Below are positions 1 through 48,510 of a stretch of 64,000 nt of DNA, in pieces. How positions within the stretch are numbered: position 1 is the first letter of the stretch; the number at the start of each line of letters is the position of its first letter. Position numbers and translations under genes: made by a program. The DNA is taken from the NCBI RefSeq assembly GCF_054482595.1, contig NZ_CM137008.1. The stretch is one strand, 5' to 3'. The notes under the pieces were generated by a model. The model had not been told where the DNA came from. It saw nothing but the letters and a program-made list of their open reading frames with translations, and did not search any database.

Positions 1-1
1 A

Positions 2-1327: not shown

Positions 1328-2820
1328 TGGTGCCTGTAGCACAGGAAACCACCGCTAACACCGTGCGTCTGCCCTACAGTTTCAGCCGTCGGTTTAGCCT
1401 GGTGGCATGGTGCGAAGCGTCGCTGGAGATCCTCCATGTGCATCCGTTGTCGCTCTCTGTTTTGCAGGAGCTGCAGCGGGGGCTGAACGCGCCCTTTACG
1501 CTGCGGCAAATCGACGAGGCCGAATTTGAACAGCGACTGAATGCGGTCTGGCAGCGGGACTCTTCCGAGGCCCGCCAGCTAATGGAAGATCTCGGTTCTG
1601 CTGAGGACTTTTTTACTCTCGCTGAAGAACTGCCGGAAACGGAAGATCTGCTGGAAAGTGACGACGATGCGCCGATCATCAAACTGATCAACGCCATGCT
1701 GGCAGAGGCGATTAAAGAAGGCGCTTCGGATATTCACATCGAGACGTTTGAAAAGAGTCTGGTGATCCGTTTTCGCGTTGACGGCACATTACATGAAATG
1801 CTGCGCCCGGGGCGCAAACTGGCCTCGCTGCTGGTATCGCGTATCAAGGTGATGGCACGGCTGGATATCGCCGAAAAGCGCGTACCGCAGGATGGACGTA
1901 TTGCGCTGCTGCTGGGCGGTCGGGCGATTGACGTGCGTGTCTCCACCATGCCCTCCGCCTGGGGCGAGCGCGTGGTGCTGCGACTGCTGGACAAAAACCA
2001 GGCCCGCCTGACGCTGGAGCGTCTGGGGCTTAGCCAGCAACTGACCGCGCAGTTGCGCCAGCTGTTACACAAACCGCACGGCATCTTTCTGGTAACGGGG
2101 CCGACGGGTTCCGGAAAAAGCACCACGCTGTACGCCGGATTGCAGGAGCTGAACAACCATTCGCGCAATATTCTCACGGTTGAAGACCCCATCGAATACA
2201 TGATTGAAGGAATTGGTCAGACACAGGTTAACACCCGCGTCGGCATGACCTTTGCCCGTGGCCTGCGCGCGATTTTGCGTCAGGACCCGGATGTGGTGAT
2301 GGTCGGTGAAATCCGCGATACCGAAACCGCAGAAATCGCCGTCCAGGCTTCACTTACCGGACACCTGGTCCTTTCCACGCTGCATACCAACACGGCGGTG
2401 GGGGCGATCACGCGTTTGCAGGATATGGGCGTGGAGCCTTTCCTGCTCTCTTCCAGTCTGACGGGCGTGATGGCGCAGCGACTGGTTCGCACGCTGTGCC
2501 CCGACTGCCGCCAGCCCGCGCCTGCCACTGACGAAGAAAAACGCCTGCTGGGAATTACCGACGCGCGTACCGTCACTCTGTACCATCCGCAGGGCTGCCC
2601 CGCCTGTAATCATAAAGGTTTCCGCGGACGTACTGCCATCCATGAGCTGATCGTGGTGGATGCCACATTGCGTGATTTGATCCACCGTCAGGCCGGGGAA
2701 CTGGAGCTGGAACGTTATGTCCGGCAACACTCTGCGGGCATCCGCAGCAACGGCATTGAGAAAGTGCTCGCCGGAGAAACCTCTCTCGATGAAGTTCTGC
2801 GGGTAACCATGGAGGCGTAA
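1327..2820 (+). CDS. gspE: Type II secretion ATPase GspE
   Basis: 497 aa with Walker [11 protein letters not shown] and C-terminal CxxC...CxxC motifs; start overlaps gspD stop. Confidence 0.95.
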
Positions 2821-4043
2821 TGGCACTGTTTTACTATCAGGCGCTGGAGCGTAATGGTCGCAAAACCAAAGGCATGATTGAGGCGGATTCCGCGCGTCAT
2901 GCCCGCCAGTTGTTGCGCGGTAAAGATCTCATTCCCATGCACATTGAAGCCCGGATGAATGCTTCGGCAGGGGGAATGTTGCAGCGTCGGCGACACGCAC
3001 ATCGTCGCGTGGCGTCGGCAGATCTGGCGCTGTTCACGCGCCAACTGGCAACGCTGGTGCAGGCAGCAATGCCGCTGGAAACCTGCTTACAGGCGGTCAG
3101 TGAGCAAAGTGAAAAACTGCATGTAAAAAGCCTCGGAATGGCGCTGCGCAGCCGGATTCAGGAAGGTTACACCCTGTCGGACAGCCTGCGCGAACATCCC
3201 CGCGTCTTTGATTCCCTGTTTTGTTCGATGGTGGCTGCCGGAGAAAAATCCGGGCATCTCGACGTGGTGCTTAATCGCCTGGCGGATTACACCGAACAGC
3301 GACAGCGCCTGAAATCACGTCTATTGCAGGCCATGCTCTATCCGCTGGTTCTGCTGGTGGTGGCAACGGGCGTGGTCACTATTTTGCTGACGGCAGTGGT
3401 GCCGAAAATCATCGAACAGTTCGATCACCTCGGACACGCGCTGCCCGCCACCACCCGCGCGCTTATCGCCATGAGTGACGCGTTACAGGCCAGCGGCGTT
3501 TACTGGCTGGCGGGATTGCTGGCGCTTCTGGTGCTGGGGCAACGGCTACTCAAAAATCCTGTTATGCGCCTGCGCTGGGACAAAACCTTGCTGCGCCTGC
3601 CCGTGACAGGGCGTGTTGCGCGCGGACTGAATACGGCGCGGTTTTCCCGCACCTTAAGCATCCTCACCGCCAGCAGTGTTCCGCTGCTGGAAGGGATTCA
3701 GACCGCTGCCGCCGTGTCGGCAAATCGCTATGTCGAGCAACAACTGCTGCTGGCGGCAGATCGCGTCCGCGAAGGAAGCAGTCTGCGCGCTGCACTGGCG
3801 GAGTTGCACCTGTTCCCACCGATGATGCTGTACATGATCGCCTCCGGCGAACAGAGCGGCGAACTGGAAGCCATGCTTGAGCAGGCAGCGGTCAACCAGG
3901 AACGGGAATTTGATACCCAGGTGGGGCTGGCGTTAGGGCTGTTTGAACCGGCGCTGGTGGTGATGATGGCGGGCGTGGTGCTGTTTATCGTCATCGCCAT
4001 CCTCGAGCCGATGCTGCAACTGAACAATATGGTTGGAATGTAA
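2820..4043 (+). CDS. gspF: Type II secretion inner-membrane platform protein GspF
   Basis: 407 aa polytopic protein following gspE; start overlaps gspE stop. Confidence 0.92.
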   Translation: MALFYYQALERNGRKTKGMIEADSARHARQLLRGKDLIPMHIEARMNASAGGMLQRRRHAHRRVASADLALFTRQLATLVQAAMPLETCLQAVSEQSEKLHVKSLGMALRSRIQEGYTLSDSLREHPRVFDSLFCSMVAAGEKSGHLDVVLNRLADYTEQRQRLKSRLLQAMLYPLVLLVVATGVVTILLTAVVPKIIEQFDHLGHALPATTRALIAMSDALQASGVYWLAGLLALLVLGQRLLKNPVMRLRWDKTLLRLPVTGRVARGLNTARFSRTLSILTASSVPLLEGIQTAAAVSANRYVEQQLLLAADRVREGSSLRAALAELHLFPPMMLYMIASGEQSGELEAMLEQAAVNQEREFDTQVGLALGLFEPALVVMMAGVVLFIVIAILEPMLQLNNMVGM

Positions 4044-4059
4044 TTTACGGAGTTATCAC

Positions 4060-4515
4060 ATGAATTCGTTATCCCGCACACAAAAACCACGGGCAGGTTT
4101 TACCCTGCTGGAAGTGATGGTGGTGATTGTTATTCTTGGCGTCCTGGCAAGTCTGGTGGTGCCTAACCTGTTGGGCAACAAAGAGAAAGCGGATCGGCAA
4201 AAAGCCATCAGCGATATCGTGGCGCTGGAAAACGCACTGGATATGTACCGACTGGATAACGGGCGTTATCCAACTACCGAGCAGGGGCTTGAGGCGCTGA
4301 TCCAGCAGCCAGCCAATATGGCGGACGCCCGCAACTACCGTACTGGTGGATACATTAAACGACTGCCAAAGGATCCGTGGGGCAATGATTATCAGTATCT
4401 CAGCCCGGGTGAAAAAGGGCTGTTTGATGTTTATACCCTGGGGGCGGATGGTCAGGAAAACGGGGAAGGCGCTGGCGCAGATATCGGTAACTGGAATTTG
4501 CAGGAGTTTCAGTAA
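4060..4515 (+). CDS. gspG: Major pseudopilin GspG
   Basis: Prepilin-type N-terminus GFTLLEVMVVIVILGVLA; chosen ATG at 4060 has CGGAG 7 nt upstream (ORF track begins at 4033). Confidence 0.9.
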   Translation: MNSLSRTQKPRAGFTLLEVMVVIVILGVLASLVVPNLLGNKEKADRQKAISDIVALENALDMYRLDNGRYPTTEQGLEALIQQPANMADARNYRTGGYIKRLPKDPWGNDYQYLSPGEKGLFDVYTLGADGQENGEGAGADIGNWNLQEFQ

Positions 4516-4518
4516 GCA

Positions 4519-5082
4519 GTGCCTGAACGCGGATTCACACTTCTGGAAATCATGCTGGTGATTTTCCTTATCGGCCTTGCCAGTGCGGGCGTGGTACAGA
4601 CGTTTGCGACCGATTCTGAATCGCCCGCGAAAAAAGCGGCGCAGGATTTTCTGACTCGCTTTGCGCAGTTTAAAGACAGGGCAGTGATCGAAGGGCAGAC
4701 ACTCGGTGTACTAATCGACCCGCCGGGATACCAGTTTATGCAGCGTCGTCAGAGGCAGTGGTTGCCCGTTTCTGCGACCCGGTTATCGGCACAGGTTACG
4801 GTGCCGAAACAGGTGCAGATGCTGTTACAACCCGGAAGTGATATCTGGCAGAAGGAATATGCGCTGGAGCTGCAACGTCGTCGCCTGACGCTGCACGATA
4901 TTGAACTGGAGTTGCAAAAAGAGGCGAAAAAGAAGACGCCGCAGATCCGTTTTTCGCCTTTTGAACCCGCCACGCCGTTTACGCTGCGCTTCTACTCAGC
5001 GGCGCAAAACGCATGTTGGGCGGTAAAACTGGCACACGATGGCGCGTTATCCCTCAGTCAATGTGATGAGAGGATGCCATGA
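4519..5082 (+). CDS. gspH: Minor pseudopilin GspH
   Basis: GTG start; N-terminus GFTLLEIMLVIFLIGL prepilin motif; operon position. Confidence 0.85.
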   Translation: MPERGFTLLEIMLVIFLIGLASAGVVQTFATDSESPAKKAAQDFLTRFAQFKDRAVIEGQTLGVLIDPPGYQFMQRRQRQWLPVSATRLSAQVTVPKQVQMLLQPGSDIWQKEYALELQRRRLTLHDIELELQKEAKKKTPQIRFSPFEPATPFTLRFYSAAQNACWAVKLAHDGALSLSQCDERMP

Positions 5083-5450
5083 AGCGCGGATTTACCTTGC
5101 TGGAAGTGATGCTCGCACTGGCGATTTTTGCGCTGGCTGCCACGGCGGTGTTACAGATTGCCAGCGGTGCGCTGAGTAATCAGCACGTTCTTGAGGAGAA
5201 AACGGTAGCAGGCTGGGTGGCTGAAAACCAGACCGCGCTGCTCTACCTGATGACCCATGAACAACGGGCGGTCAGGCATCAGGGCGAGAGCGATATGGCT
5301 GGAAGCCGCTGGTACTGGCGAACCACACCGCAGAATACAGGCAACGCGCTGCTCCAGGCGGTGGATATTGAAGTCAGCCTTCACGAAGACTTTTCGTCGG
5401 TAATTCAGTCACGACGCGCCTGGTTTAGCGCCGTGGGAGGCCAACAGTGA
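5079..5450 (+). CDS. gspI: Minor pseudopilin GspI
   Basis: N-terminus MKRGFTLLEVMLALAIFALA; 4-bp overlap with gspH. Confidence 0.85.
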   Translation: MKRGFTLLEVMLALAIFALAATAVLQIASGALSNQHVLEEKTVAGWVAENQTALLYLMTHEQRAVRHQGESDMAGSRWYWRTTPQNTGNALLQAVDIEVSLHEDFSSVIQSRRAWFSAVGGQQ

Positions 5451-6052
5451 GAAGGACTCGCGCTGGTTTCACGTTACTGGAAATGCTGGTGGCGATAGCC
5501 ATTTTTGCCTCACTGGCACTGATGGCGCAGCAGGTGACAAACGGCGTCACACGTGTGAATAGTGCCGTCGCCGATCACGATCAAAAACTAAACCTCATGC
5601 AGCAAACGATGAGTTTTCTGACCCACGATCTGACACAAATGATGCCGCGTCCGGTAAGAGGCGATCAGGGCCAGCGTGAATCAGCGTTACTGGCGGGCGC
5701 TGGCGTGCTGGCGTCTGAGAGTGAAGGAATGCGCTTTGTACGCGGCGGCGTGGTTAATCCGTTGATGCGTCTGCCGCGCAGTAATCTGCTCACCGTCGGT
5801 TACCGCATTCATGACGGTTATCTCGAACGGTTAGCCTGGCCGCTGACCGACGCAGCAGGCAGCGTGAAGCCAACAACGCAAAAGTTGATTCCGGCGGATT
5901 CGCTCCGTTTGCAGTTCTACGACGGCACACGCTGGCAGGAGAGCTGGTCATCACTTCAGGCGATCCCAGTGGCGGTACGCATGACCCTGCACTCGCCGCA
6001 ATGGGGCGAGATTGAACGCATCTGGTTGTTACGCGGGCCGCAATTATCATGA
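5447..6052 (+). CDS. gspJ: Minor pseudopilin GspJ
   Basis: GTG start; N-terminus AGFTLLEMLVAIAIFASL; overlaps gspI stop. Confidence 0.85.
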   Translation: MRRTRAGFTLLEMLVAIAIFASLALMAQQVTNGVTRVNSAVADHDQKLNLMQQTMSFLTHDLTQMMPRPVRGDQGQRESALLAGAGVLASESEGMRFVRGGVVNPLMRLPRSNLLTVGYRIHDGYLERLAWPLTDAAGSVKPTTQKLIPADSLRLQFYDGTRWQESWSSLQAIPVAVRMTLHSPQWGEIERIWLLRGPQLS

Positions 6053-7026
6053 TCAGCTCACCACCAAAACGCGGAATGGCACTGGTCGTGGTGCTGGTAT
6101 TGCTGGCGGTCATGATGCTGGTAACCATCACGCTTTCCGGGCGGATGCAGCAACAACTTGGGCGAACGCGCAGCCAGCAGGAGTACCAGCAGGCGCTATG
6201 GTACAGCGCCAGTGCTGAAAGCCTGGCGTTGAGCGCGCTCAGTCTGAGTCTGAAAAATGAACAACGTGTGCATCTGGCACAGCCGTGGGCTTCTGGCCCT
6301 CGTTTTTTCCCACTGCCGCAGGGGCAAATCGCCGTCACTCTGCGTGACGCACAGGCCTGCTTTAACCTGAATGCCCTCGCTCAGCCGACGACGGCGTCGC
6401 GTCCGCTCGCGGTACAACAACTGATTGCCCTGATCACGCGCCTCGATGTGCCTGCTTATCGGGCCGAATTAATTGCTGAAAGCCTGTGGGAGTTTATTGA
6501 CGAAGGCCGCAGTGTGCAGACGCGTCTGGGGCGTGAAGACAGTGAGTATCTTGCCCGTTCGGTGCCGTTCTACGCCGCCAATCAACCGCTGGCTGATATC
6601 AGCGAGATGCGCGTGGTACAGGGAATGGACGCCGGACTTTATCAAAAACTGAAACCGCTGGTCTGTGCGCTGCCGATGACCCGCCAGCAAATCAACATCA
6701 ATACCTTAGACGTCACGCAAAGTGTGATTCTTGAGGCGCTGTTTGACCCGTGGTTAAGCCCTGTTCAGGCGCGGGCGTTATTACAACAACGTCCGGCGAA
6801 GGGCTGGGAAGATGTCGATCAGTTTCTTGCACAGCCGCTACTTGCTGACGTCGATGAGCGTACTAAAAAACAGCTAAAAACCGTCCTGAGCGTGGACAGC
6901 AATTACTTCTGGCTGCGTTCAGATATCACCGTGAATGAGATTGAACTGACGATGAACTCGTTAATTGTCCGCATGGGCCCACAACACTTTTCGGTTCTCT
7001 GGCATCAGACAGGAGAAAGTGAGTGA
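6049..7026 (+). CDS. gspK: Minor pseudopilin GspK
   Basis: 325 aa with N-terminal hydrophobic segment; operon position and overlap with gspJ. Confidence 0.85.
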   Translation: MISSPPKRGMALVVVLVLLAVMMLVTITLSGRMQQQLGRTRSQQEYQQALWYSASAESLALSALSLSLKNEQRVHLAQPWASGPRFFPLPQGQIAVTLRDAQACFNLNALAQPTTASRPLAVQQLIALITRLDVPAYRAELIAESLWEFIDEGRSVQTRLGREDSEYLARSVPFYAANQPLADISEMRVVQGMDAGLYQKLKPLVCALPMTRQQININTLDVTQSVILEALFDPWLSPVQARALLQQRPAKGWEDVDQFLAQPLLADVDERTKKQLKTVLSVDSNYFWLRSDITVNEIELTMNSLIVRMGPQHFSVLWHQTGESE

Positions 7027-8201
7027 GTTCCATGCTTGAGATTTTTTTCCCGCTTTGCGCCTCCGACACCATCCGCTGGCAGCGCCGTACACCCGACGTG
7101 GAGCACGGTATCTGGCCTGACGTTGCTGACGAACGTCTCCAGCAATGGCTGCAAACTGATGCGATTCGACTCTACATTCCCGGCGAATGGATCAGCGTCT
7201 GGCAGGTTGAACTGCCTGATATCCCCCGCAAGCAGATACCGACTATTCTGCCCGCCTTACTGGAAGAGGAGCTGAACCAGGATATCGACGAACTGCATTT
7301 TGCCGCGTTGAAAATCGACCAGCAACAGGCAACCGTGGCAGTGATTCACCAGCAGCATATGCGCAACATTGCGCAGTGGTTGCAGGCAAACGGCATCACC
7401 CGCGCCACCGTTGCACCGGACTGGATGTCCATGCCTTGTGGTTATATGGCTGGCGATGCACAGCGAATTATTTGCCGCATCGATGAATGCCGTGGATGGA
7501 GCGCCGGGCTGGCGCTGGCTCCGGTCATGTTCCGCGCCCAGCTCAATGAGCAGGATTTACCGCTTTCGCTAACTGTAGTCGGCATTGCACCGGAAGAACT
7601 ATCAGCATGGGCTGGCGCAGACGCTGAACGCCTGACCGTTACGGCTCTGCCAGCCATTACCACTTATGGCGAACCGGAAGGGAACCTGCTAACAGGGCCG
7701 TGGCAGCCTCGCGTCAGCTACCGAAAACAGTGGGCGCGCTGGCGAGTGATGATTCTGCCGATATTGCTGATTCTGGTTGCGCTGGCAGTGGAACGGGGCG
7801 TGACGTTATGGAGCGTCAGCGAACAGGTGGCGCAAAGCCGCGACCAGGCTGAGAAACAGTTCTTAACGTTGTTCCCGGAGCAGAAGCGGATTGTGAATTT
7901 ACGCTCTCAGGTGACGATGGCGCTGAAAAAATATCGCCCACAGGCCGACGATACCCGGCTGCTCGCCGAGTTGTCAGCGATAGCCAGCACCCTGAAATCA
8001 GCGTCACTTTCCGACATCGAAATGTGTGGTTTCACCTTTGATCAAAAACGCCAGACGCTTCACCTCCAGTTGCGGGCAGCAAACTTTGCCAGTTTCGACA
8101 AACTGCGTAGTGCACTGGCAACCGATTATGTTGTGCAACAGGACGCGTTACAGAAAGAGGGTGATGCGGTTTCCGGCGGCGTAATGTTGCGGAGGAAATA
8201 A
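7023..8201 (+). CDS. gspL: Type II secretion protein GspL
   Basis: 392 aa with a single central TM (WARWRVMILPILLILVALAV); GTG start overlapping gspK stop. Confidence 0.85.
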   Translation: MSSMLEIFFPLCASDTIRWQRRTPDVEHGIWPDVADERLQQWLQTDAIRLYIPGEWISVWQVELPDIPRKQIPTILPALLEEELNQDIDELHFAALKIDQQQATVAVIHQQHMRNIAQWLQANGITRATVAPDWMSMPCGYMAGDAQRIICRIDECRGWSAGLALAPVMFRAQLNEQDLPLSLTVVGIAPEELSAWAGADAERLTVTALPAITTYGEPEGNLLTGPWQPRVSYRKQWARWRVMILPILLILVALAVERGVTLWSVSEQVAQSRDQAEKQFLTLFPEQKRIVNLRSQVTMALKKYRPQADDTRLLAELSAIASTLKSASLSDIEMCGFTFDQKRQTLHLQLRAANFASFDKLRSALATDYVVQQDALQKEGDAVSGGVMLRRK

Positions 8202-8202
8202 C

Positions 8203-8739
8203 ATGTTACGCGATAAATTTATTCACTATTTTCAGCAATGGCGTGAACGCCAGTTAAGCCGTGGCGAACACTGGCTGGCACAACACCTGGCGGGGCGTTC
8301 TCCGCGTGAAAAGGGCATGTTACTGGCAGCGGTGGTGTTCCTGTTTAGCGTCGGATATTACGTCCTCATCTGGCAGCCGTTGAGCGAACGGATAGAACAA
8401 CAGGAGACGATGTTGCAGCAGCTGGTGGCAATGAACACCCGACTGAAGAACGCCGCGCCGGATATTATTGCAGCGCGAAAATCTGCCACAACAACGCCTG
8501 CGCAGGTATCGCGGGTCATCAGTGACAGTGCTTCCGCGCACTCGGTGGTCATCAGGCGGATAGCCGAGCGTGGGGAGAATATTCAGGTCTGGATAGAACC
8601 TGTGGTGTTTAATGACCTGCTGAAATGGTTAAACGCACTGGATGAAAAATATGCGCTGCGGGTGACACAAATTGATGTCAGTGCTGCTGAGAAGCCTGGG
8701 ATGGTGAATGTGCAGCGGCTGGAGTTTGGACGGGGGTAA
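8203..8739 (+). CDS. gspM: Type II secretion protein GspM
   Basis: 178 aa with N-terminal TM (MLLAAVVFLFSVGYYVLIW); last gene of the operon. Confidence 0.85.
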   Translation: MLRDKFIHYFQQWRERQLSRGEHWLAQHLAGRSPREKGMLLAAVVFLFSVGYYVLIWQPLSERIEQQETMLQQLVAMNTRLKNAAPDIIAARKSATTTPAQVSRVISDSASAHSVVIRRIAERGENIQVWIEPVVFNDLLKWLNALDEKYALRVTQIDVSAAEKPGMVNVQRLEFGRG

Positions 8740-8765
8740 AGTATCAGGAGATTAATATCAATAAA

Positions 8766-8794
8766 ATTACTCTCGTTAACGTGGCGAGAGTAAT
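8766..8794 (+). terminator. Perfect 10-bp inverted repeat (ATTACTCTCG...CGAGAGTAAT) just downstream of gspM; possible terminator
   Basis: Hairpin read directly from sequence; the T-run lies about 20 nt downstream, so terminator function is uncertain. Confidence 0.3.
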
Positions 8795-8840
8795 TCCCCC
8801 AGACTTTATAAGCTAATTTTTTTCGTGAAGGTTATTGTCA

Positions 8841-8875
8841 GATCCAAAAGCAAAAACCCGCCTTGTGGGCGGGTT
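8841..8875 (-). terminator. Rho-independent terminator (minus-strand sense), likely the ancestral tRNA-Phe terminator
   Basis: Stem AACCCGCC/GGCGGGTT with TTGT loop, followed on the minus strand by TTTTTGCTTTTGG. Confidence 0.55.
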
Positions 8876-8887
8876 CTTAAGAATTAG

Positions 8888-25335: not shown

Positions 25336-26409
25336 AAAAATCTCCTCCGGATGTTGTTAATCTCAACCGGCGTTGATGATGAAAACAACGCACCACCTTC
25401 ACCGGCATAACAACCGGGGAGAAACGTAAAAAATCAGTAGGGGAATATTCCTGCCAGGAGAGAAACGGTTGTGTACAGGCAATACAGGTTGTCTGTTTTG
25501 TCAGTGAAGCCGGTATAAACGGAAGATGATTTTGTGTTGCCGGAATATGGGATGGTATTTTGTCGTGACGGAATCAGTATTTTCAGTGATGATTATTACT
25601 GCGCAGGGGAGTACCGGAGAGAAACCACGCCCTGTACCTGCCAGAGCGGTGGTTTGTATTGACTGAACGGAAGATAAAGCGAGGTAAACACTGTTGTGGT
25701 GAGCGGAGAAGACTGAGATTATTCTCTGTAATTACAAACAACAGTGATCTTATCCGGTTTTTTTACCGTTACGGGTTTCAGGGGATCAATTTTATAGACC
25801 GGGGTAATGACCACGCCGTAATTTATGGAGAAAAGCGGGATCCAGCAATAAACGTCAGGATATTTCTGTGTCTCCGGAATACCTTTTGTGCCAGAGGCCA
25901 TCAGATCTTTAACGCTCACGAAAAATGACTTCCGCAGATCAAAAAAGTACTCGTTATATATCACATCCTTTGCCAGCAGGATGACTGCATTACCAACAGC
26001 CGATTTTACAGGTGTTTCATCAGGTGGATTATCGTGATTGTATATTGTTCTTTCTATATAAATAAAACAGGCATATTTCGTCTTCTCCCCGGATAGTTGC
26101 ATCTGGTATTCGCAAATGTCTTTGATATACCGACTTTCAACCCTTCCAATCATCTTATCCCGGCGATAGTGTCTTTTATGTTTCAGCGCGTACAGAACAC
26201 CATTTGAACTGTCAAACTCCAGGACACTTCTGGTGAAAAGTTTGTTTTCCCAGATCTCCAGACAATACTTCTCTGCACTGACGACATTGCGTTTGTGGGG
26301 AAGATTCCGTTGATACACTCCATTTAATAAGCGTGACTGCAGTTCGCCTGCAAGTTGATAGTAACAGTTAATGTCATTAAGGACAGGTGCTGTGGCGTTG
26401 GATTTGCCC

Positions 26410-27315
26410 CTATATTTCCAGACACCTGTTATCACTTAACCCATTACTGGCTTGCTGCCGTAGATATTCCCGTGGCGAGCGATAACCCAGTGCACTATGC
26501 GGATGCCATTCGTTATAATGCTCGAATGCCTCTGCAAGGTTCTTTGCTGCCGTTAACCCGTCTGGTTTGGGCATGACACTGATGTAGTCACGCTTTATCG
26601 TTTTCACGAAGCTCTCTGCTATGCCGTTACTCTCCGGACTCCGCACCGCCGTGTTCTTCGGTTCAAGCCCCAACATCCGGGCAAACTGCCGTGTTTCATT
26701 AGCCCGGTAGCATGAACCATTATCCGTCAGCCACTCTACTGGAGACGCCGGAAGCTCGTTGCCGAAACGGCGTTCCACCGCTCCCAGCATGACGTCCTGT
26801 ACTGTTTCACTGTTGAAGCCGCCCGTAGTGACCGCCCAGTGCAGTGCCTCACGGTCACAGCAGTCCAGCGCGAACGTGACTCGCAGTTTTTCTCCGTTAT
26901 CACAGCGGAACTCGAACCCGTCAGAGCACCATCGCTGATTACTTTCTTTCACAGCCACTCTGCCGGTATGTGCCCGTTTCGATGGCGGTACAGCGGGTTT
27001 TCGCTCAAGCAACAGCGCATTCTGGCGCATGATCCGGTAAATACGTTTGGCATTGATCGCAGGCATACCATCAAGTTCGGCCTGTCTGCGAAGCAGCGCC
27101 CATACCCGACGATAACCATATGTGGGCAGCTCTCCGATAACATGGTGTATACGGAGAAGCACATCCGTATCATCTGAGTGACGGCTGCGGCGACCATCTT
27201 TCCAGTCATCGGTTCGTCTGAGAATGACGTGCAACTGCGCACGCGACACCCGGAGACAACGGCTGACTAAGCTTACTCCCCATCCCCGGGCAATAAGGGC
27301 GCGTGCGCTATCCAC
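26410..27315 (-). CDS. insD: IS2 transposase OrfB (InsD), normally expressed by frameshifting from orfA
   Basis: 301 aa with DDE catalytic core, matching IS2 InsD as recalled. Confidence 0.9.
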
Positions 27316-27638
27316 TTTTTTGCACGCCCGTATTCAACGGCTTCTTTAAGGAGTTCATTTTCCATCGTTTTTTTGCCGAGCAGGCGCTGGAGTTCTTTAA
27401 TCTGCTTCATGGCGGCAGCAAGTTCAGAGGCAGGAACGACCTGTTCTCCTGCGGCCACAGCAGTAAGACTTCCCTCCTGGTATTGCTTGCGCCAGAGAAA
27501 TAACTGGCTGGCTGCCACACCGTGTTGCCGGGCAACAAGGGAGACTGTCATTCCCGGTTCAAAACTCTGCTGAACAATAGCGATCTTTTCCTGTGTAGTA
27601 CGCCGTCTGCGTTTCTCCGGTCCTAAGACATCAATCAT
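27273..27638 (-). CDS. insC: IS2 transposase OrfA (InsC)
   Basis: [47 protein letters not shown]... matches IS2 InsC as recalled. Confidence 0.9.
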
Positions 27639-28180
27639 CTGCTCTCCAATGACTAGTCTAAAAACTAGTATTAAGACTATCACTTAAATAAGTGATATTG
27701 GTTGTCTGGAGATTCAGGGGGCCAGTCTAGGCGTTGAGTAATGTGTTGATTACCTTAGAGCGCGAAAGTTTGTGGGTATGACAGTACTCATCCACAATTC
27801 GCAGTGTCTCATCACTGGTCATATTGAAAGTTATACGTGTTGTCATGATGAAGTTTTCTGTTAATCATACTGGTTGATATGCATAACATTTCATAAAAAA
27901 TACTGTTAATTCATATAATTGATTTTTTGACTGGTTTTATCCTCGTGTGGTGGAAAGCAGTATTACTGCCACTGTAGTCAGCATAAATCTATCACACAGA
28001 ACCACCGAAAATGAAGCATTGCTCAGGGGGAAGCTGCCACTCGTATGAGTTCTCTGAACCATGATAACCAGTATTTTTCGTTTTGGGTGATTTGTTTATC
28101 GTTACAGCTACATACAGTTCATGTACCATTAAAAAATAATAAAGGTTAATTAGTATTATTTATAGAAGTATGTTTATGTA

Positions 28181-28480
28181 ATTCTACCGTGTAAATGAAC
28201 CCTGTAATTCTACCTTGTAAATACACCTTGTAACCAAGTCCTGTAGAAGTCTGTCTCATAGAGGTATCTGTGCAGTGATATTCTCTGTAGTAGTACTTGT
28301 AACTCTGTTCTTAACTCTCTCTTCAGTAATGTAGTCCCGCAACACCTGAATATAAATCTGTAATGTTCACACACTGACTGTAACGTGCTTTGTTAAGTAA
28401 TGTCTGCTATTTTTTTTCTGTTATTTTTCCTGTTGTTTTCTGTATTTTGTTGTATGGTGTAATAACTATTCTGAACCCGT
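28181..28480. repeat. Array of short phased YTGTA/CTGT-containing repeats in an ORF-poor AT-rich segment
   Basis: Tandem copies of CTGTAATTCTACC(G/T)TGTAAAT at 28181-28225, then recurring CTGTA/TGTAA/CTGTT motifs every 10-13 bp. Confidence 0.4.
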
Positions 28481-29262
28481 CATCACCTTTATAGCTAAGA
28501 GTATGACTTCGCCAGTGTTGATACTGTGGATAACGGTGATTAAGGAATTACTGTTAATGATCTGTTCCTGCAGCTCACCTGATGAGTTTTGGTAGTAATA
28601 CGTAAAAGAGTATGCCTCATGTCATTAAAAAGTCTTCCGGAGTGTTGTTTAACCCTGTACCTCTGTTACTCATGTAGTACGTTGCGGAAAGCTACGTTAA
28701 TTGTAATATCTGGTTATGGCGTTATGCCTTCAGTATTAAAAACATCTTTTACCGGAGAAACTGGGAAGTGGAAAGGCTTTCGGGATAACGTCAGGCCATT
28801 ATGACGATATTACGTTAATCACAGTACAAGATAACGAGAGGGTAATGGAATTTTAAACCAGAGTAGTTCCACTGTTGTTCACTGGAAAAAGTGATTTCCC
28901 ACGCGCGTTATAAGCTTACTCCAGAGGAGATGGAAGCCTTCAACTCTGCGGTCGATCACCGGCTGGCAGAACTGACCATGAACAAACTTTACGATCGTGT
29001 TCCCGCTTCAGTCTGGAAATATGTTACCTGATAAATGTTTCTGATGAAGTACAGTCGTCACAATGACATCACTTCAGATATTATCTGCGCTGTGATTGAC
29101 TGTCACGTATGCCGTTCTCTGTATGGTTCTGATACCCGGGTGTGGTCCCACTTTCTCTGTGGCGCCCGGGGAGTTGTGAACCTGCACGTCTTCGTGTGAT
29201 AACGTTTTCTTCAAAAATTACGCCAGCGCTTCTTCCTGTGTTACAGAACACGAGGAAGAAAC

Positions 29263-29862
29263 ATGAAGACTTACAACACCAATCCCGGTTACGAAATGGA
29301 TCCCCAGCTCCTGACACACTTTAACCAGCATCTGGATTCATTATTCGGGGTATATTCGAAACTGTTACCGTTCAGAATGGATTTTGCTTACCGAAAAAAC
29401 ACCCTCAGCTACAGATGTGCCTGCAGGTACGCCATGTGCGCGGAGATACTGCGACTGATTAACGAAGTGGGAGAGAAACTGGTCGGGTATGCCTGGGTAA
29501 TGGAATATACGGAACGTAAAGGGCTTCACATTCATTTTGTGGGCTATCTGAACGGTCAGAGCCACAGGAGTTCGTATCTGGTATCCAGATTGATGGGAGA
29601 TATCTGGAGGCGGGTTACCGGGGGTGATGGTTACTACCACTGGTGCCGGTTTAATAAAAATTATCCGGTAAACATTAACCACGTCATTCACTATTCAGAT
29701 CACAAAGCGGTGAATGCCTTACGCTATGCCCTCAGCTACCTGGCCAAACGAGAACAGAAAGAATGTGGCATCATCCTGAAATGCAGCGGGCTTCCTGAAA
29801 AAAGTAACCGGGGTCGACCGCGACTGGGCAGCACCCTGCCGGAGACTTATTCTCTGGTGTAA
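29263..29862 (+). CDS. Rep-like protein, putative inovirus Gp2 / YagK-YfjJ family (HIH motif)
   Basis: 199-aa ORF with GAGGAAG RBS; motif GLHIHFVGYLNG; shares a pattern with ORFs at 31511 and 47998. Confidence 0.5.
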   Translation: MKTYNTNPGYEMDPQLLTHFNQHLDSLFGVYSKLLPFRMDFAYRKNTLSYRCACRYAMCAEILRLINEVGEKLVGYAWVMEYTERKGLHIHFVGYLNGQSHRSSYLVSRLMGDIWRRVTGGDGYYHWCRFNKNYPVNINHVIHYSDHKAVNALRYALSYLAKREQKECGIILKCSGLPEKSNRGRPRLGSTLPETYSLV

Positions 29863-30233
29863 GACCCTGAACGACAACTACGGGCTGGCGCTAATTGTTA
29901 CGGTCGGTTCCGGAGGCCACTTCAGGGACTCTGCGCATTTTTTACGACATGGCTATTCCGTATGAACCATACGGAGATTTAACCATGGCACATTCTTTAC
30001 CATTCCTTCCGGCAACCGATACAGCGCATCCTCCGATGTCCATCCCTGCCTGCTGACAGTTTTTTACGCCGGTGGGCCATTGTGTGACAACCACAGTGCT
30101 GTAACAGCAACCAGCCTGCTTTACCCAAACTCCAGTCCAGATTTTAACTGAACCGCCATTCACACCCTGACCACACTGCCCGTACCGGGACAGCTGTTGC
30201 CTGCGTGTCGTCTGGCTGCTGAGGAATATGACG

Positions 30234-30617
30234 ATGTACGCAAAATCCTTTATTGCATTTGATGGCAACGGGCGTCTGACGGGTGCCCGTACCGCACAGA
30301 CTGCACCTTACGATCGCTACACTTGCCACCTTTGCGGCAGTGCGCTCAGATACCACCCGCAATACGACACTGAGCGTCCCTGGTTTGAACACACTGACAA
30401 CGGGCTGACGGAGCACGGTCAGCAGTGCCCTTATGTCAGACCGGAACGCAGGGAGATACAACTGATTAAGCGTTTGCAGCAATTCGTACCGGATGCCTTA
30501 CCCGTGGTGCGTAAAGCCAGCCGGCACTGCAGACAATGTCATCACGATTATTATGGGGAGCGGTACTGCACGCACAGCCATACCGGGCACTTCAGTGAGG
30601 AGGGGGTGGCAGAATGA
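30234..30617 (+). CDS. Cys-rich putative zinc-binding protein (paralog 1)
   Basis: CHLCGSALRYH...WFEHTD and CRQCHHDYYGERYC motifs; ATG 30234 has better RBS spacing than 30228. Confidence 0.5.
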   Translation: MYAKSFIAFDGNGRLTGARTAQTAPYDRYTCHLCGSALRYHPQYDTERPWFEHTDNGLTEHGQQCPYVRPERREIQLIKRLQQFVPDALPVVRKASRHCRQCHHDYYGERYCTHSHTGHFSEEGVAE

Positions 30618-31039
30618 ACGGTATAAAAACGGGGCTGGGGATCACGCCGGGTGAACACATTATCAGTGCTGATTCTGCGCTCAGCAGAAATATCCGGCAG
30701 TGTTTCTGCCTTTCCTGTCATGGCCGGTTGATTTTGCAGACAGATGCTCAGGGGGCGTGGTTTGAGCACGATTTACATGTCCTGAGCGAGCAACAGAAGG
30801 CAGCCTGCGTGGTGCTGAATCCGGAAAAGTCCCACCCTTACATTGAGGATATGGAGATGTTTTTATCGCCATTACCGGTCGTGCTGGAGTGGCATTGTGT
30901 GATGTGTGAGCAGTTTTTTCATGGGAAGAAATTCTGTGAGGCCTGTGGTACGGGGATTTATTGCAGAGCGGTATGTACGAAGTCTGTTTACAGCTACCAG
31001 CCAGACTTGTTTCAGGACTGCGGAGGTGCGAGTACTTAA
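30614..31039 (+). CDS. Cys-rich putative zinc-binding protein (paralog 2)
   Basis: CLSCHGRLILQ...WFEHD and CVMCEQ...CEACGTGIYC motifs; start overlaps the previous stop by 4 bp. Confidence 0.5.
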   Translation: MNGIKTGLGITPGEHIISADSALSRNIRQCFCLSCHGRLILQTDAQGAWFEHDLHVLSEQQKAACVVLNPEKSHPYIEDMEMFLSPLPVVLEWHCVMCEQFFHGKKFCEACGTGIYCRAVCTKSVYSYQPDLFQDCGGAST

Positions 31040-31510
31040 TCCGAAATCTCCGCTCTGCGCAGGGCGTTCAGAGATATCGCAACCTGCATTTTATCCGGTG
31101 TTTCGCACCTGCCCCGTTCGTGACACAAAGGCGTGACACCGGATATCCGCAGTCCTGCTTACCTGAATAAAACCCGGGGTATTGATTGTGTACTGTGGTG
31201 CGAAATCGCACCGTGATCGCGGATTCGCCGAATCCGCACTGTGGTGTCAACCAACCATACGCGAGAGTCCTCTCCGTATTTATCAGTGCCTCAGGACGAT
31301 TTCTGCATAGTTAATCCAGGGGGCTGCATTGTTTATTTCCCTGCTAATGGATGTGACATCCAGGATATTCATGATCCTGATTTCCCTGAGCAGTATCAGC
31401 GCTTATTGGCACGTCTGGATTATCTGACGAAGCCCGATGCTAAAGCATCAGGTCAGCGTAACTCTGGCTACAGCGGTTTTTGACCTGTTGTAACTGTAAG
31501 GTGATTTATT

Positions 31511-32077
31511 ATGTATACAGAATCAAACGTTAAGCTTTCCTGTAACGCCCTCTGGCAAAAGTGTGTCCTTGCAACTCTGTATCGGGCTGCAGCCACACAT
31601 CCTGAAATTAAATTATTACAATTTAAATTAATACCAGGACAGGGTATTAATAAGGCCATTCCCTCTCTGATGGCTGATTTTACTGGTGAACTGCATAGAC
31701 TCATTTCTGAATATTTGCAGTGTAAGCGACGTAAAGATAAATCTGTTGAGCCCACCCCTTTATATTATCTCTGGAGTAGGGAGGCTGTGGCTAACGATAC
31801 CACTCCTTATCTTATGGTGCTGCTACTTAATAACGATGTCTGGTGTAAGAGTCGTGAGGTGGTGGTTCTCAGAAATCTGATTGAGCAGGCGTGGGGAAAA
31901 GTATTGGGTGAAGATAACTCCATTACACATCTGGTTGTGTATCCTGAAGTGCTGTCGTTGGTATTTGATGCAGCTAACACATACAACGCTGAGCCTGGTG
32001 TACTGGAACAGACGGCCCAGGCTTACATTGAATCGCATGGTGCCATTGAACGTCATCTTGGGTGTAGTGACTTTTAA
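31511..32077 (+). CDS. Hypothetical protein, second Rep-like (Gp2-family-like) paralog
   Basis: 188-aa ORF with pattern GINKAIPSLMADFTGELHRLISEY...PYLMVLLLNND resembling the 29263 and 47998 ORFs. Confidence 0.45.
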   Translation: MYTESNVKLSCNALWQKCVLATLYRAAATHPEIKLLQFKLIPGQGINKAIPSLMADFTGELHRLISEYLQCKRRKDKSVEPTPLYYLWSREAVANDTTPYLMVLLLNNDVWCKSREVVVLRNLIEQAWGKVLGEDNSITHLVVYPEVLSLVFDAANTYNAEPGVLEQTAQAYIESHGAIERHLGCSDF

Positions 32078-32407
32078 CGTCAGGTGATGCATAAGGGCCT
32101 TTCGCTGAGAGGCCCTGTTTACACAATTAAATAAATCGAGCCCGACCAACAATTTTGATGTTAACAGCAGGATTATTGAGGGGCAATCAATGTGTTCTTC
32201 GGTAGCGATTACGGTAGTGAACGGACCTGCTGTCTGAATGGCATCGATCCGCAAGCGTATCGGCGCCATATTCTGAGCGTACTACTGAAATGGCTAATGG
32301 CAGTAAAGAGAGACTTTACGTATATTTGCATAAAGCAGGATTTTACGACTAGTCAACATTCTTTATAATTCTTCAGGTTCAGAGTATCTGACATATAGGG
32401 TTATGTA

Positions 32408-33124
32408 TTGGGGAGACATTTAATGTTTGGCCATCTGTTACGATACTTTAGTTTCTGTAAAAAAGATTTATTAGTATTTCATCCTGAATCTGATTACTCA
32501 GATAATTTACATAAAGCCTTCTCTTTTACAAAAAGGCTAGGATTTAATGAAGAATGGAATGGGGTCACAAAAAACAAAGAATATGATTATCAGGATGTCT
32601 TCAGTCATGTCTGTCTGCAGTCTGGTGTGACAGACTTTTCCGCTTCAGCAGGACAATGCTTAAAGTGGAGTCATTATTTTCAGCCATATTTTGAGAATAT
32701 CCTTGAATGTCGGGTATGGGTTACCGTTGGACAACTCTGGAAACAGGAACGATTTATTTACAATCCGTCAGTTGCGGATTTTCAGCGCTGGTCTGAAAAA
32801 GGGATTCAGCCTGAAGATTTTAGACATCACTCGGGGTTTAACTTTCATGCGTGGTTGACGACGGAAAATGGTGTGATTGTGGATGTTTCCTTTATGAGTA
32901 CGTTATCGCGGCGATTACCTGAACACCTGAGTGAAGTCAGTGGAAGTGTGATTATTGGCACGCCAGAGACGGTTCTTCCTGAGTATAAATATGTTCCCAT
33001 GATTGTCGGTCAGAGGATTGTTGAGAAAATAGAAAAACGCTCTTTCATTGGTTTTCTGGCGCACGACGATATTGATTTATATACAGTACCTGCAATCTTG
33101 GTTCCGGTATGGAAAGAATGTTAA
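32408..33124 (+). CDS. Hypothetical protein (238 aa), ORFan
   Basis: Long ORF in AT-rich DNA with balanced protein-like composition; no recognisable motif. Confidence 0.45.
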   Translation: MGRHLMFGHLLRYFSFCKKDLLVFHPESDYSDNLHKAFSFTKRLGFNEEWNGVTKNKEYDYQDVFSHVCLQSGVTDFSASAGQCLKWSHYFQPYFENILECRVWVTVGQLWKQERFIYNPSVADFQRWSEKGIQPEDFRHHSGFNFHAWLTTENGVIVDVSFMSTLSRRLPEHLSEVSGSVIIGTPETVLPEYKYVPMIVGQRIVEKIEKRSFIGFLAHDDIDLYTVPAILVPVWKEC

Positions 33125-33443
33125 AGCACGGAATAACACTATGCACTTACCGCTTTCCGGAACTCAGCTTGTTACCTGAGCGGTCAACAGAGCAGTCTTT
33201 CAGTGTCTGCACTTGGTTGCCACTAAACCGGAGTCATTTATCAGAAGTATATGTTCATGGAAGGATATTGTCAGCGCCAGTGATATAAGACGGTAATGAG
33301 GATAGCCATCCCGCATGGGTTTCCTCAACACTGGTCACTGTGACAAGCGCACCATGATCGTCTTTGTATCGCTGATTGACTTTCGATAATAGAACATCTT
33401 CTGACATAAATTTTAGTACGGTAACAATTAACTAAATTTTCAT

Positions 33444-33710
33444 GTGGTAGCACTGAATCAGGAGACTGCGTTTCCTGATGTGTGCTTCTGCAGCCGTTAC
33501 CGGATACAGACTTCGATACCAGTTACTTCGACATCCGCCATGTGTCCTGGGACCCGCTATAACGAAGTTGGAGGTAATCAGTACAGCGTTCCCGAAATGC
33601 TGTGTGGTCAGCCAGTCTCGATACGAATATCGCTGAACGATGAGTTGCGGATCTACAGTAATGAGAAACTGGTGGCCTCACATCGCCTCTGCTCAGTGTC
33701 GTCTGGCTAG
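33444..33710 (+). pseudogene. IS21-family transposase (IstA) C-terminal fragment
   Basis: YSVPEMLCGQPVSIRISLNDELRIYSNEKLVASHRLC resembles the IstA C-terminal domain; no N-terminus or istB follows. Confidence 0.5.
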
Positions 33711-47997: not shown

Positions 47998-48510
47998 TCA
48001 CCTGGCTATTGTTGCCATAACGGGTAACATAAGGGACTGAACAGTTGTCTTTAGCACAACGAACTGATCTAATGTACCTGAACGGTCAACCTGAAAACAG
48101 CTTTCCAACCGACATTGTCCGCCAGCGTTTATCCCCGACCAGGTCTGTTGCAGTAAATCCACCACTTGCGAACATTCTTCATCAACTGTGGCACTGACCC
48201 GCAGATGGCAAATGCTCGCCTGGCTGAGCAGCAACAGGCATCGTATTGTTGCTTCTCCATGTTGTTCCAGCAACCAGCGTAATACCACCGGCGGTGCTGG
48301 ACTGGCAGTGTGATTACGCTCAGTAATATGTTCTTGCACCTGTCGGTAAAAGGCAGTACAGAATGCATGAATCTGTTGCCCGTTGATGTTTCCTTCTGCC
48401 GAATAGAGCGTGAAGTGGACTGCCAGCAGACGCGGCCAGTGGTCCACCGCCTGCTGAACAAAACGCCAGATATCTCCCGGCTCTGAAAGTAACGCTTCGG
48501 TTATTTGCAC
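47998..48510 (-). CDS. Hypothetical protein, third Rep-like (Gp2-family-like) paralog
   Basis: 170-aa ORF with pattern GNINGQQIHAFCTAFYRQVQEH...IRCLLLLSQAS resembling the ORFs at 29263 and 31511. Confidence 0.4.
   Translation of the reverse strand: MQITEALLSEPGDIWRFVQQAVDHWPRLLAVHFTLYSAEGNINGQQIHAFCTAFYRQVQEHITERNHTASPAPPVVLRWLLEQHGEATIRCLLLLSQASICHLRVSATVDEECSQVVDLLQQTWSGINAGGQCRLESCFQVDRSGTLDQFVVLKTTVQSLMLPVMATIAR

What the first reader, a model, noticed from the sequence alone, without database searches (positions are those of the whole stretch)
30228..31039. Translationally coupled pair of paralogous Cys-rich proteins sharing a CxxC...WFEH motif
The adjacent ORFs overlap by 4 bp (ATGA). 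Each has an N-terminal C-x2-C-[GH]...WFEH(T)D segment and a C-terminal Cys/His cluster (CRQCHHDYYGERYC; CVMCEQ...CEACGTGIYC). Tandem duplicated zinc-ribbon-like proteins of this kind could be nucleic-acid-binding or nuclease-associated; I do not recognise the family.
Basis: seen in the sequence. Interest (0 to 1): 0.45.

Follow-up and report, generated by a model that had tools for sequence, protein, structure and literature searches.

The report
Paired zinc-finger genes of an island
Two overlapping genes encode related small zinc-binding proteins of a catalogued family with no known function; they are standard backbone genes of a very common E. coli genomic island, and their front half has the same fold as the zinc finger of the DNA-cutting competence protein CoiA.

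Summary
Gene A is at 30234-30617 (the ORF opens at 30228) and gene B at 30614-31039. They overlap by ATGA and are paralogues (BLASTP E=1e-9).

Both proteins are DUF7828 (PF25165) plus Zn_ribbon_11 (PF11682, ex-DUF3279). RefSeq already calls them "putative zinc ribbon protein". About 71% of complete E. coli genomes carry an A-like gene.

New here:
- The C-domain is a Cys4 ribbon. This window's A has lost the fourth Cys (Ser115) and the conserved Trp (Arg97).
- The genes sit in a conserved cassette across Enterobacterales: HUH Rep-like YagK/YfjJ, AlpA, Zn, then in pair-bearing loci Zn plus a Rep paralogue that has lost the HUH and Tyr motifs.
- Both genes are under purifying selection (dN/dS about 0.18).
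- They are absent from 50,697 phage genomes.

An AF2 model of an A-linker-B fusion gave no confident heterodimer (pTM 0.38).

My best guess is inferred, not shown: nuclease-less DNA-recognition or adaptor subunits of the island's Rep/AlpA maintenance or mobilisation module. This is a catalogued, uncharacterised family of moderate interest.

The parts
30234..30617 (+). Gene A: a 127-aa protein with a DUF7828 (CoiA-N-like CCHC zinc finger: C31, C34, H53, C65) and a degenerate Zn_ribbon_11 (C99, C102, C112, then Ser115 where Cys is expected; Arg97 where Trp is expected). The mechanical ORF opens at 30228.
   Evidence: Pfam DUF7828 E=4.1e-31 and Zn_ribbon_11 E=1e-4. RefSeq WP_040235185.1 'putative zinc ribbon protein'.
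30614..31039 (+). Gene B: a 141-aa paralogue with a DUF7828 (C32, C35, H52, C65) and an intact Cys4 Zn_ribbon_11 (C95, C98, C108, C111), followed by a Cys-rich tail predicted with low confidence. Its ATG overlaps the stop codon of A (ATGA).
   Evidence: Pfam E=3.7e-22 and 3.8e-15. AF2 model pLDDT 85.5. RefSeq WP_001013324.1.
30597..30606 (+). Shine-Dalgarno-like GAGGAGGGGG for gene B, inside the 3' end of gene A.
   Evidence: Read from the sequence. The GGAGG core is 10 nt upstream of ATG 30614.
30150..30226 (+). Conserved non-coding leader immediately upstream of gene A (...CCGCCATTCACACCCTG.CCAyGCTGCCCGTACCGGGACGGCTGACGCCTGCGTGTCGTCTGGCGGTAAGGA). It contains a small hairpin with a GGGACGG core in which G, A, C and one further G are invariant.
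   Evidence: It is 80-90% identical at DNA level across >=12 genera and carries 1-2 nt indels, so it is non-coding. RNAalifold finds only a weak 6-pair hairpin with almost no covariation.
29263..29862 (+). Upstream neighbour REP1: a YagK/YfjJ 'inovirus-type Gp2' protein with an HUH-like motif (LHIHFV) and a Tyr motif (SYLAKREQK).
   Evidence: REP_ORF2-G2P E=1.8e-4; YagK_YfjJ_C E=4.4e-4; motifs conserved in all 16 upstream Rep-like proteins aligned.
31241..31483 (+). C-terminal fragment of another YagK/YfjJ Rep-like gene (it keeps LDYLTKP) between B and REP2. This marks the region as mosaic.
   Evidence: RefSeq 'YagK/YfjJ domain-containing protein'.
31511..32077 (+). Downstream neighbour REP2: a YagK/YfjJ paralogue (the UCP030791 type in other loci) that lacks both the HxH motif and the Tyr motif.
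   Evidence: (YagK_YfjJ_C E=7.6e-10).

Best explanation
**What it is (shown).** A and B are paralogous small proteins, each with two zinc sites.
- The front domain is a CCHC zinc-finger domain with the fold of the N-terminal domain of competence protein CoiA (Pfam DUF7828).
- A helical linker follows.
- The back domain is a Cys4 zinc ribbon (Pfam Zn_ribbon_11).
- There is no catalytic domain.

They are backbone genes of the CP4-type, tRNA-associated genomic islands of Enterobacterales. They sit in a conserved co-directional cassette:
- an HUH-motif Rep-like YagK/YfjJ protein
- (AlpA)
- Zn protein A
- Zn protein B
- a Rep-like paralogue that has lost its HUH and Tyr motifs
- then the cargo genes.

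**How it most likely works (inferred).** The proteins act as non-catalytic recognition or adaptor subunits for the island's own AlpA/Rep-like maintenance module, which handles excision, rolling-circle-type replication or mobilisation. They would use the CoiA-N-like finger and the ribbon to hold single-stranded or branched DNA, or a partner protein. B is made in step with A through the overlapping stop/start and its internal ribosome-binding site.

In this particular window A has lost one ribbon ligand, so its ribbon may be impaired.
For: **Identity**
- Pfam hits.
- Ligand columns conserved in 206 sequences.
- AF2 model with pLDDT 85.5 and two folded domains.

**CoiA-N fold**
- 8 of 40 family members give weak Pfam CoiA_N hits.
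- Full-length CoiA binds ssDNA more stably than dsDNA and is a structure-specific endonuclease. Its N-terminus is described as a putative zinc finger (bioRxiv 10.1101/2024.02.06.579203).

**Context**
- The order Rep-like, AlpA, Zn holds even around the most divergent members and on a Klebsiella plasmid-borne island.
- 10 distinct loci with a Zn pair have a second Rep-like gene directly downstream (in one of them, L011, the B copy is split). 5 loci with a single Zn have a single Rep. 3 loci with a decayed second Zn have no second Rep.
- Upstream Reps keep HxH plus Y-x2-K. Downstream Reps have lost both.

**Function under selection**
- dN/dS about 0.18.

**Coupling**
- A 4-bp or 13-bp overlap is conserved across genera.

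**Not phage-borne**
- No match in 50,697 phage genomes.
Against: - No binding or activity data exist, and no paper mentions the family.
- The proteins are not basic: pI 7.7 and 5.7, family median 7.6.
- A stays 64-85% identical whatever the type of the upstream Rep, which ranges from 23 to 95% identity. It therefore does not co-vary with that supposed partner.
- An AF2 model of an A-(GGGGS)6-B fusion gave pTM 0.38 and pLDDT 74.6, so there is no confident heterodimer. The alignment was shallow and 15 of its 25 rows were artificial pairings.
- In E. coli C the pair survives intact in a decayed island remnant with no Rep-like gene. That hints at a Rep-independent role.
- The role of the CoiA N-domain itself has not been mapped.
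Confidence: 0.4

Rival explanations
1. A and B are island transcription regulators. They would be zinc-finger activators or repressors, functionally analogous to the Ogr/Delta zinc-finger activators of P2/P4. They would act downstream of AlpA on island or host promoters, possibly through RNA polymerase.
For: - The genes lie directly downstream of the regulator AlpA in most loci.
- A ~75-nt non-coding leader upstream of A is conserved across genera and travels with A rather than with the Rep type. That would fit an operator or autoregulatory site.
- A and B are far more conserved than the flanking Rep-like genes. This fits a conserved host target such as RNA polymerase.
- There is a marginal profile hit to RPB9, which has two zinc ribbons joined by a linker (E=0.0096).
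- P4 Delta being a tandem duplication of an Ogr-like unit is from my own knowledge and was not tested here.
Against: - No Ogr_Delta or other transcription-factor Pfam hit appeared for any of 40 members.
- The structural relatives are CoiA-type nucleases, not regulators.
- There is no HTH domain.
Confidence: 0.25
2. A and B form a selfish or protective two-gene module of the island. This could be anti-phage defence, anti-defence or an addiction module, independent of the Rep-like genes.
For: - The pair sits at the border of the variable cargo region, which often carries defence genes. One example is an SNF2 helicase + AAA ATPase + S8 peptidase + methylase cluster next to it in Klebsiella.
- An intact A+B' pair is all that is left of an island remnant in E. 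coli C.
- A CoiA domain occurs in an experimentally found E. coli anti-phage protein (PMC9519451).
- The overlapping two-gene layout is typical of toxin-antitoxin-like pairs (my own knowledge).
Against: - No PADLOC model matched.
- There is no enzymatic or membrane domain that could act as an effector.
- The two genes are paralogues of each other, which is unusual for toxin-antitoxin pairs.
- Many islands carry a single copy.
- The position is fixed in the backbone next to Rep/AlpA rather than scattered among cargo.
Confidence: 0.15
3. In this window the pair is a decaying remnant without current function. The family may be functional elsewhere.
For: - A has lost the fourth ribbon Cys and the conserved Trp. 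These states are seen in 2 of 164 and 4 of 182 sequences.
- No AlpA gene lies between REP1 and A here.
- A Rep gene fragment lies between B and REP2.
- An IS2 element sits 2.5 kb upstream, and the surrounding island is full of pseudogenes and IS elements.
Against: - Both reading frames are intact, with good ribosome-binding sites.
- The same allele is 100% identical in at least 7 complete genomes.
- His114 or His116 could replace the lost Cys as a zinc ligand (inference).
Confidence: 0.15

Closest known systems
Pfam DUF7828 (PF25165) + Zn_ribbon_11 (PF11682, formerly DUF3279); RefSeq 'putative zinc ribbon protein' / 'DUF7828 domain-containing protein'; some UniProt entries named 'Ybl85'
   Same: Both proteins match both models over their full length. 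Identical proteins are already in RefSeq (WP_040235185.1, WP_001013324.1). The AFDB50 Foldseek top 50 are all such proteins.
   Different: Nothing differs in kind. Gene A of this window has a rare Cys-to-Ser loss of the fourth ribbon ligand. The family has no described function and no paper in the searched library.
Competence protein CoiA (N-terminal domain CoiA_N, PF25164; nuclease domain PF06054). It is a D-loop resolvase of natural transformation in Bacillota.
   Same: - The N-domain has the same layout: two short strands and a helix, a CxxC knuckle, a beta hairpin ending in an aromatic-F-x-H motif (WFEH here), then a helix and a Cys.
- There are weak Pfam CoiA_N hits in 8 of 40 members.
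   Different: - There is no PD-(D/E)XK nuclease domain and no CoiA C-terminal region. A Cys4 zinc ribbon follows instead.
- The proteins are 127-141 aa, against roughly 300 aa or more for CoiA.
- They are found in Enterobacterales genomic islands and are not competence genes of Bacillota.
- The window's two proteins give no CoiA_N hit themselves.
RPB9 / TFS-type proteins (two zinc ribbons joined by a linker) and generic zinc ribbons such as eL43
   Same: The spacing of the two metal sites is similar. A profile search of PDB sequences gives a marginal RPB9 hit (E=0.0096) and eL43 hits at E 0.4-0.6. Legacy UniProt and JGI names ('DNA-directed RNA polymerase...', 'ribosomal protein L37AE/L43A') probably come from this resemblance.
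P2 Ogr / P4 Delta zinc-finger late-gene activators
   Same: Both are small zinc-binding proteins of an integrative element that also encodes an AlpA/Vis-type regulator, and both occur as a tandem pair of related units. This is an analogy from my own knowledge.
   Different: No sequence similarity was detected. No Ogr_Delta hit appeared among 40 members. The family is absent from 50,697 phage records.

Membership tests
Pfam DUF7828 (PF25165) | Significant full-length match to the family HMM | tested here: met
   A: E=4.1e-31, model positions 1-87 of 87. B: E=3.7e-22, positions 2-86 of 87. 40 of 40 aligned relatives match.
Pfam Zn_ribbon_11 (PF11682) | Significant match to the family HMM | tested here: met
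   B: E=3.8e-15, positions 1-36 of 37. A: E=1e-4, positions 7-32 of 37, a weaker and partial match.
Pfam Zn_ribbon_11 (PF11682) | Four Cys ligands, CxxC...CxxC | tested here: inconclusive
   B has C95, C98, C108 and C111. A has C99, C102 and C112 but Ser115 at the fourth position. Cys is there in 161 of 164 sequences. Neighbouring His114 or His116 might substitute, which was not testable.
CoiA competence protein family | N-terminal zinc-finger domain (CoiA_N, PF25164) | tested here: inconclusive
CoiA competence protein family | PD-(D/E)XK nuclease domain (PF06054) | tested here: not met
   No such Pfam hit for A, B or any of 40 relatives. The proteins end shortly after the ribbon. They are therefore not CoiA family members.
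   No HNH-type family appears among the Pfam hits down to E=10 for A and B or down to E=0.1 for 40 relatives.
RPB9/TFS two-ribbon transcription factors | Significant sequence or structure match to RPB9/TFIIS-type ribbons | tested here: not met
Known anti-phage defence system components (PADLOC-DB v2) | Match to a defence-protein model | tested here: not met
   0 families at E<=0.01 for A, B and three neighbours.
Phage protein families (PHROGs) / phage genomes | Match to a PHROG, or presence in phage genomes | tested here: not met
   No PHROG for A or B. tblastn of A against 50,697 phage records found no match.

The most novel reading that the evidence does not exclude
The Zn proteins are nuclease-free descendants of the CoiA DNA-recognition module. 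They would read a single-stranded or hairpin/branched DNA intermediate of the island and license its HUH Rep-like enzyme. In pair-bearing islands, A and B would work with an active Rep plus a catalytically dead Rep paralogue. If so, CP4-type 'cryptic prophage' islands, present in most E. coli, would have their own rolling-circle replication or mobilisation machinery with a new kind of zinc-finger specificity factor.
Probability: 0.15. Interest if true: 0.6.

Novelty: already known. Interest (0 to 1): 0.33.

Why it matters
These genes are among the most widespread uncharacterised backbone genes of E. coli genomic islands. An A-like gene is present in 3853 of 5426 complete genomes.

The same cassette also sits on a Klebsiella plasmid-borne island about 4 kb upstream of an RND efflux cluster. 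Nobody knows how CP4-type islands are maintained or moved.

Three findings turn a DUF into a testable hypothesis about island replication or mobilisation:
- the fixed cassette of HUH-type Rep-like gene, AlpA and Zn protein(s);
- the link between a second Zn gene and a second, motif-less Rep paralogue;
- the CoiA-N fold of the front domain.

They also offer a nuclease-free model for studying what the CoiA N-terminal finger recognises. As a scan finding, however, it is a catalogued family, not a new kind of system.

Tried and rejected
- **Curated libraries.** NCBIfam, PHROGs, PADLOC and PDB sequence searches with A and B returned nothing useful.
- **Literature.** Searches for DUF7828, DUF3279, PF11682, Ybl85, YfjJ/YagK and DUF932/AlpA/DUF2913 found no paper on the family or the cassette.
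- **Foldseek AFDB50.** The top 50 were all family members, so nothing new came out.
- **RPB9-like reading.** Rejected. It rests on a marginal sequence hit with no structural support.
- **Locus search with the diverse alignment.** The search for related loci with A2 failed because no conserved 7-mer exists. It was repeated with an A-type alignment and gave 16 loci.
- **First fusion alignment.** It mixed fused and single sequences and was mis-registered by MAFFT because A and B are paralogues. It was discarded and rebuilt from fused rows only.
- **A-B heterodimer by AF2 fusion.** No support (pTM 0.38). No PAE or coordinates were available, so this is inconclusive rather than negative.
- **A's C-terminal 'CxC' tail plus B's 'CC' tail as a shared metal site.** Considered and set aside. 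In the 13-bp-overlap loci A's tail codons are the same bases as B's MRML start. The window's A lacks the tail.
- **Nick-site reading of the conserved leader.** Unlikely to be a REP1 site, because it travels with A and not with the Rep type.
- **Rfam.** No hit in 27500-33500.
- **K-12 CP4-44.** It has no copy.

Full report
**1. The observation**

The window has two same-strand ORFs, 30228..30617 (129 aa) and 30614..31039 (141 aa). They share the four bases ATGA, which are the start of B and the stop of A.

RefSeq and every homologue start A at the second ATG, 30234 (MYAKSF...). A GAGGA at 30221-30225 is well spaced for that codon.

B has its own strong ribosome-binding sequence, GAGGAGGGGG at 30597-30606, inside the end of A.

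The two proteins are paralogues: 31% identity over 81 residues, E=1e-9.

**2. What family it is**

Both proteins match Pfam DUF7828 (PF25165; E=4e-31 and 4e-22). Both also match Zn_ribbon_11 (PF11682, the former DUF3279; E=1e-4 and 4e-15).

The 1.1-kb region is 100% identical to several complete E. coli genomes. There the genes are annotated 'putative zinc ribbon protein' or 'DUF7828 domain-containing protein'.

- 3853 of 5426 complete E. coli genomes carry at least an A-like gene. The median is 2 places per genome and the maximum is 7.
- 1406 genomes carry this A+B lineage.

The family is small and narrow.
- A profile search of 1.84 billion representative proteins found 270 at E<=0.001. Nearly all are the same 120-170 aa two-domain protein or fragments of it.
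- A scan of 100,044 species genomes for A-type genes returned 16 loci, nearly all Enterobacterales.
- No NCBIfam, PHROG or PADLOC model matches. No solved structure is related by sequence. No paper in the searched library names the family.

**3. Anatomy of the proteins**

In a 206-sequence alignment two sets of ligand columns are conserved in >=95% of sequences that have a residue there:
- C32, C35, H52 (the H of WFEH) and C65;
- C95, C98, C108 and C111 (B numbering).

An AlphaFold2 model of B, built on a 40-sequence alignment, has mean pLDDT 85.5. Both domains score above 90, the linker is less certain, and the Cys-rich tail is disordered. The layout is:
- two short strands and a helix;
- the CxxC knuckle;
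- a beta hairpin ending in WFEH;
- a helix ending at C65;
- a linker helix;
- a three-stranded ribbon.

Gene A of this window is unusual. The fourth ribbon Cys is Ser115 (THSHTG instead of THCHTG). The conserved Trp before the ribbon is Arg97. These states occur in 2 of 164 and 4 of 182 sequences.

Both genes evolve under purifying selection across genera, with median dN/dS of 0.18 and 0.17. Many comparisons are saturated at synonymous sites.

The proteins are not basic: pI 7.7 and 5.7, family median 7.6.

**4. The fold relationship**

| Search | Result |
|---|---|
| Foldseek vs AFDB50 | Top 50 all family members |

Eight of 40 family members also give weak Pfam CoiA_N hits, the best at 1.3e-3.

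CoiA is a PD-(D/E)XK, structure-specific endonuclease and D-loop resolvase of natural transformation. It binds ssDNA better than dsDNA. Its N-terminus is described only as a small putative zinc finger (bioRxiv 10.1101/2024.02.06.579203).

A and B have no nuclease domain. They therefore share a module with CoiA but are not CoiA family members.

A marginal profile hit to RPB9 (E=0.0096) probably reflects the spacing of two metal sites. It has no structural support.

**5. Genomic context**

The window is a composite genomic island. It starts after the gsp type II secretion genes, with the island from about 8878. The same island lies next to cadC in strain Santai.

The left part, on the minus strand, is the classical CP4-type backbone:
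- AlpA;
- a DUF2913/YfjI-like gene;
- a GTPase;
- Ag43;
- DUF932;
- an antirestriction gene;
- a RadC-like JAB gene;
- CbeA/CbtA.

A and B belong to a second, plus-strand module:
- an Hha-like gene (28891-29031);
- REP1 (29263-29862);
- a 371-nt spacer;
- A and B;
- a Rep-gene fragment (31241-31483);
- REP2 (31511-32077).

REP1 matches REP_ORF2-G2P and YagK_YfjJ_C. REP2 matches YagK_YfjJ_C.

**6. The cassette is conserved**

I looked at loci from Salmonella, Klebsiella, Mixta, Superficieibacter, Tenebrionibacter, Siccibacter, Yokenella, Serratia, Citrobacter, Atlantibacter, Leclercia and Trabulsiella. I also looked around the most divergent family members.

The order is always a Rep-like gene, AlpA (or AlpA, DUF2913, Rep-like), then one or two Zn genes, then cargo.

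The A+B pair is not an E. coli duplication. It occurs with a 13-bp overlap in many genera.

| Zn genes in the locus | Rep-like genes | Distinct loci |
|---|---|---|
| Zn pair (B copy split in one, L011) | A second Rep-like gene directly downstream | 10 |
| Single Zn gene | A single Rep-like gene | 5 |
| Decayed second Zn gene | No second Rep-like gene | 3 |

The loci are not phylogenetically independent, so this is a pattern and not a statistic.

In an alignment of the Rep-like proteins, all 16 upstream copies keep an HxH motif followed by hydrophobic residues and a Y-x2-K motif. This is the signature of HUH endonucleases, which I recognise from my own knowledge. All 9 downstream copies shown have lost both motifs.

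**7. What argues against a simple 'Rep partner' model**

- A is 64-85% identical between loci whatever the type of REP1, which ranges from 23 to 95% identity. B and REP2 co-vary only partly. A and B are thus the constant core between variable Rep-like genes.
- In E. coli C an intact A+B' pair is all that remains of an island remnant.
- An AF2 model of A-(GGGGS)6-B reproduced the same fold for both halves but gave pTM 0.38, so no confident heterodimer. The alignment had 10 true pairs and 15 artificial pairings. No PAE was available, so the test is weak.

**8. Interpretation**

*Shown:*
- the identity of the family;
- the two zinc sites;
- the CoiA-N-like fold;
- the conserved cassette;
- purifying selection;
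- absence from phages and rarity on plasmids (29 of 72,556 records).

*Inferred (about 0.4):* the proteins are non-catalytic DNA- or partner-recognition subunits of the island's AlpA/Rep-like maintenance or mobilisation module.

*Rivals:*
- island transcription regulators (0.25);
- a defence, anti-defence or addiction pair (0.15);
- for this allele specifically, decay (0.15).

**9. Verdict**

The family is already catalogued (Pfam DUFs, RefSeq names) but has no known function. The added value here is the CoiA-N fold link and the Rep/AlpA cassette rule.

Interest is moderate to low for a scan (0.33). It would be higher if the Rep-licensing model proved true.

Noticed in passing
window 30150-30226: A non-coding leader just upstream of gene A is 80-90% identical across at least 12 genera, as conserved as the coding sequence, and carries 1-2 nt indels. 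It contains a small hairpin (GCTGCCCGT-ACC-GGGACGGC) with a GGGACGG core in which G, A, C and one further G are invariant. It follows A rather than the type of the upstream Rep or AlpA gene. It could be an operator, a 5'-UTR element or a protein-binding DNA site.
   Followed up: partly
window 31013-31157: Nested inverted repeats start in the last codons of B. The outer arms are 12 nt and 100% complementary; the inner arms are 15 nt and 87% complementary. As single-stranded DNA the region folds at -32 kcal/mol, z=-3.7 against shuffles. It lies in a mosaic stretch next to a Rep-gene fragment. No Rfam match.
   Followed up: partly
window 28177-28228: Four head-to-tail 13-bp repeats (TGTAAttctaccN / TGTAAatgaaccN) sit in the AT-rich intergenic region upstream of the Hha-like/REP1 genes, with more TGTAA-containing words nearby. 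They look like iterons. Conservation in other loci was not checked.
   Followed up: no
window 29263-29862 and 31511-32077 (plus 47998-48510, minus strand): The 'inovirus-type Gp2'/YagK-YfjJ proteins fall into two classes. Upstream copies have HxH and Y-x2-K motifs (HUH-endonuclease-like). Downstream UCP030791-type copies have lost both. A third motif-less copy lies at 47998-48510.
   Followed up: partly
window 26401-27729: An IS2 copy (InsA-like ORF 27273..27683 and OrfB-like ORF 26410..27315, minus strand) is inserted here relative to strain Santai, which is otherwise 99.8-100% identical. It lies beside the 238-aa ORF (25719..26435, minus strand), between AlpA and the Hha-like/REP1/Zn module.
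   Followed up: partly
window 1-8877 versus 8878 onward: The island abuts the gsp type II secretion cluster in this strain, whereas near-identical island DNA lies next to cadC in E. coli O157:H16 Santai. The same island therefore occupies two different chromosomal sites in different strains.
   Followed up: partly
L034 (Klebsiella pneumoniae plasmid NZ_CP110517.1, 73958-77356 and 79726-85600): The full cassette Gp2, AlpA, Zn, Zn, Gp2, DUF2913 sits on an IncFIB/IncHI1B plasmid about 4 kb upstream of an RND efflux cluster that PLSDB flags as a predicted adeF-like resistance gene. The island type can therefore carry resistance cargo on plasmids.
   Followed up: no
proteins P0074, P0231, P0067/P0053: Natural chimeras exist. 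P0074 joins an A-type N-domain to a B-type ribbon. P0231 has two DUF7828 domains and one ribbon. P0053 and P0067 join this window's B-type N-domain to another lineage's ribbon. This shows frequent recombination between paralogous copies.
   Followed up: no
L035 (E. coli C, NZ_CP029371.1 110660-111456): At the CP4-44 position, an intact A plus B' pair (13-bp overlap) survives between IS and pseudogene fragments with no Rep-like gene or AlpA. K-12 has no copy at the same locus.
   Followed up: partly
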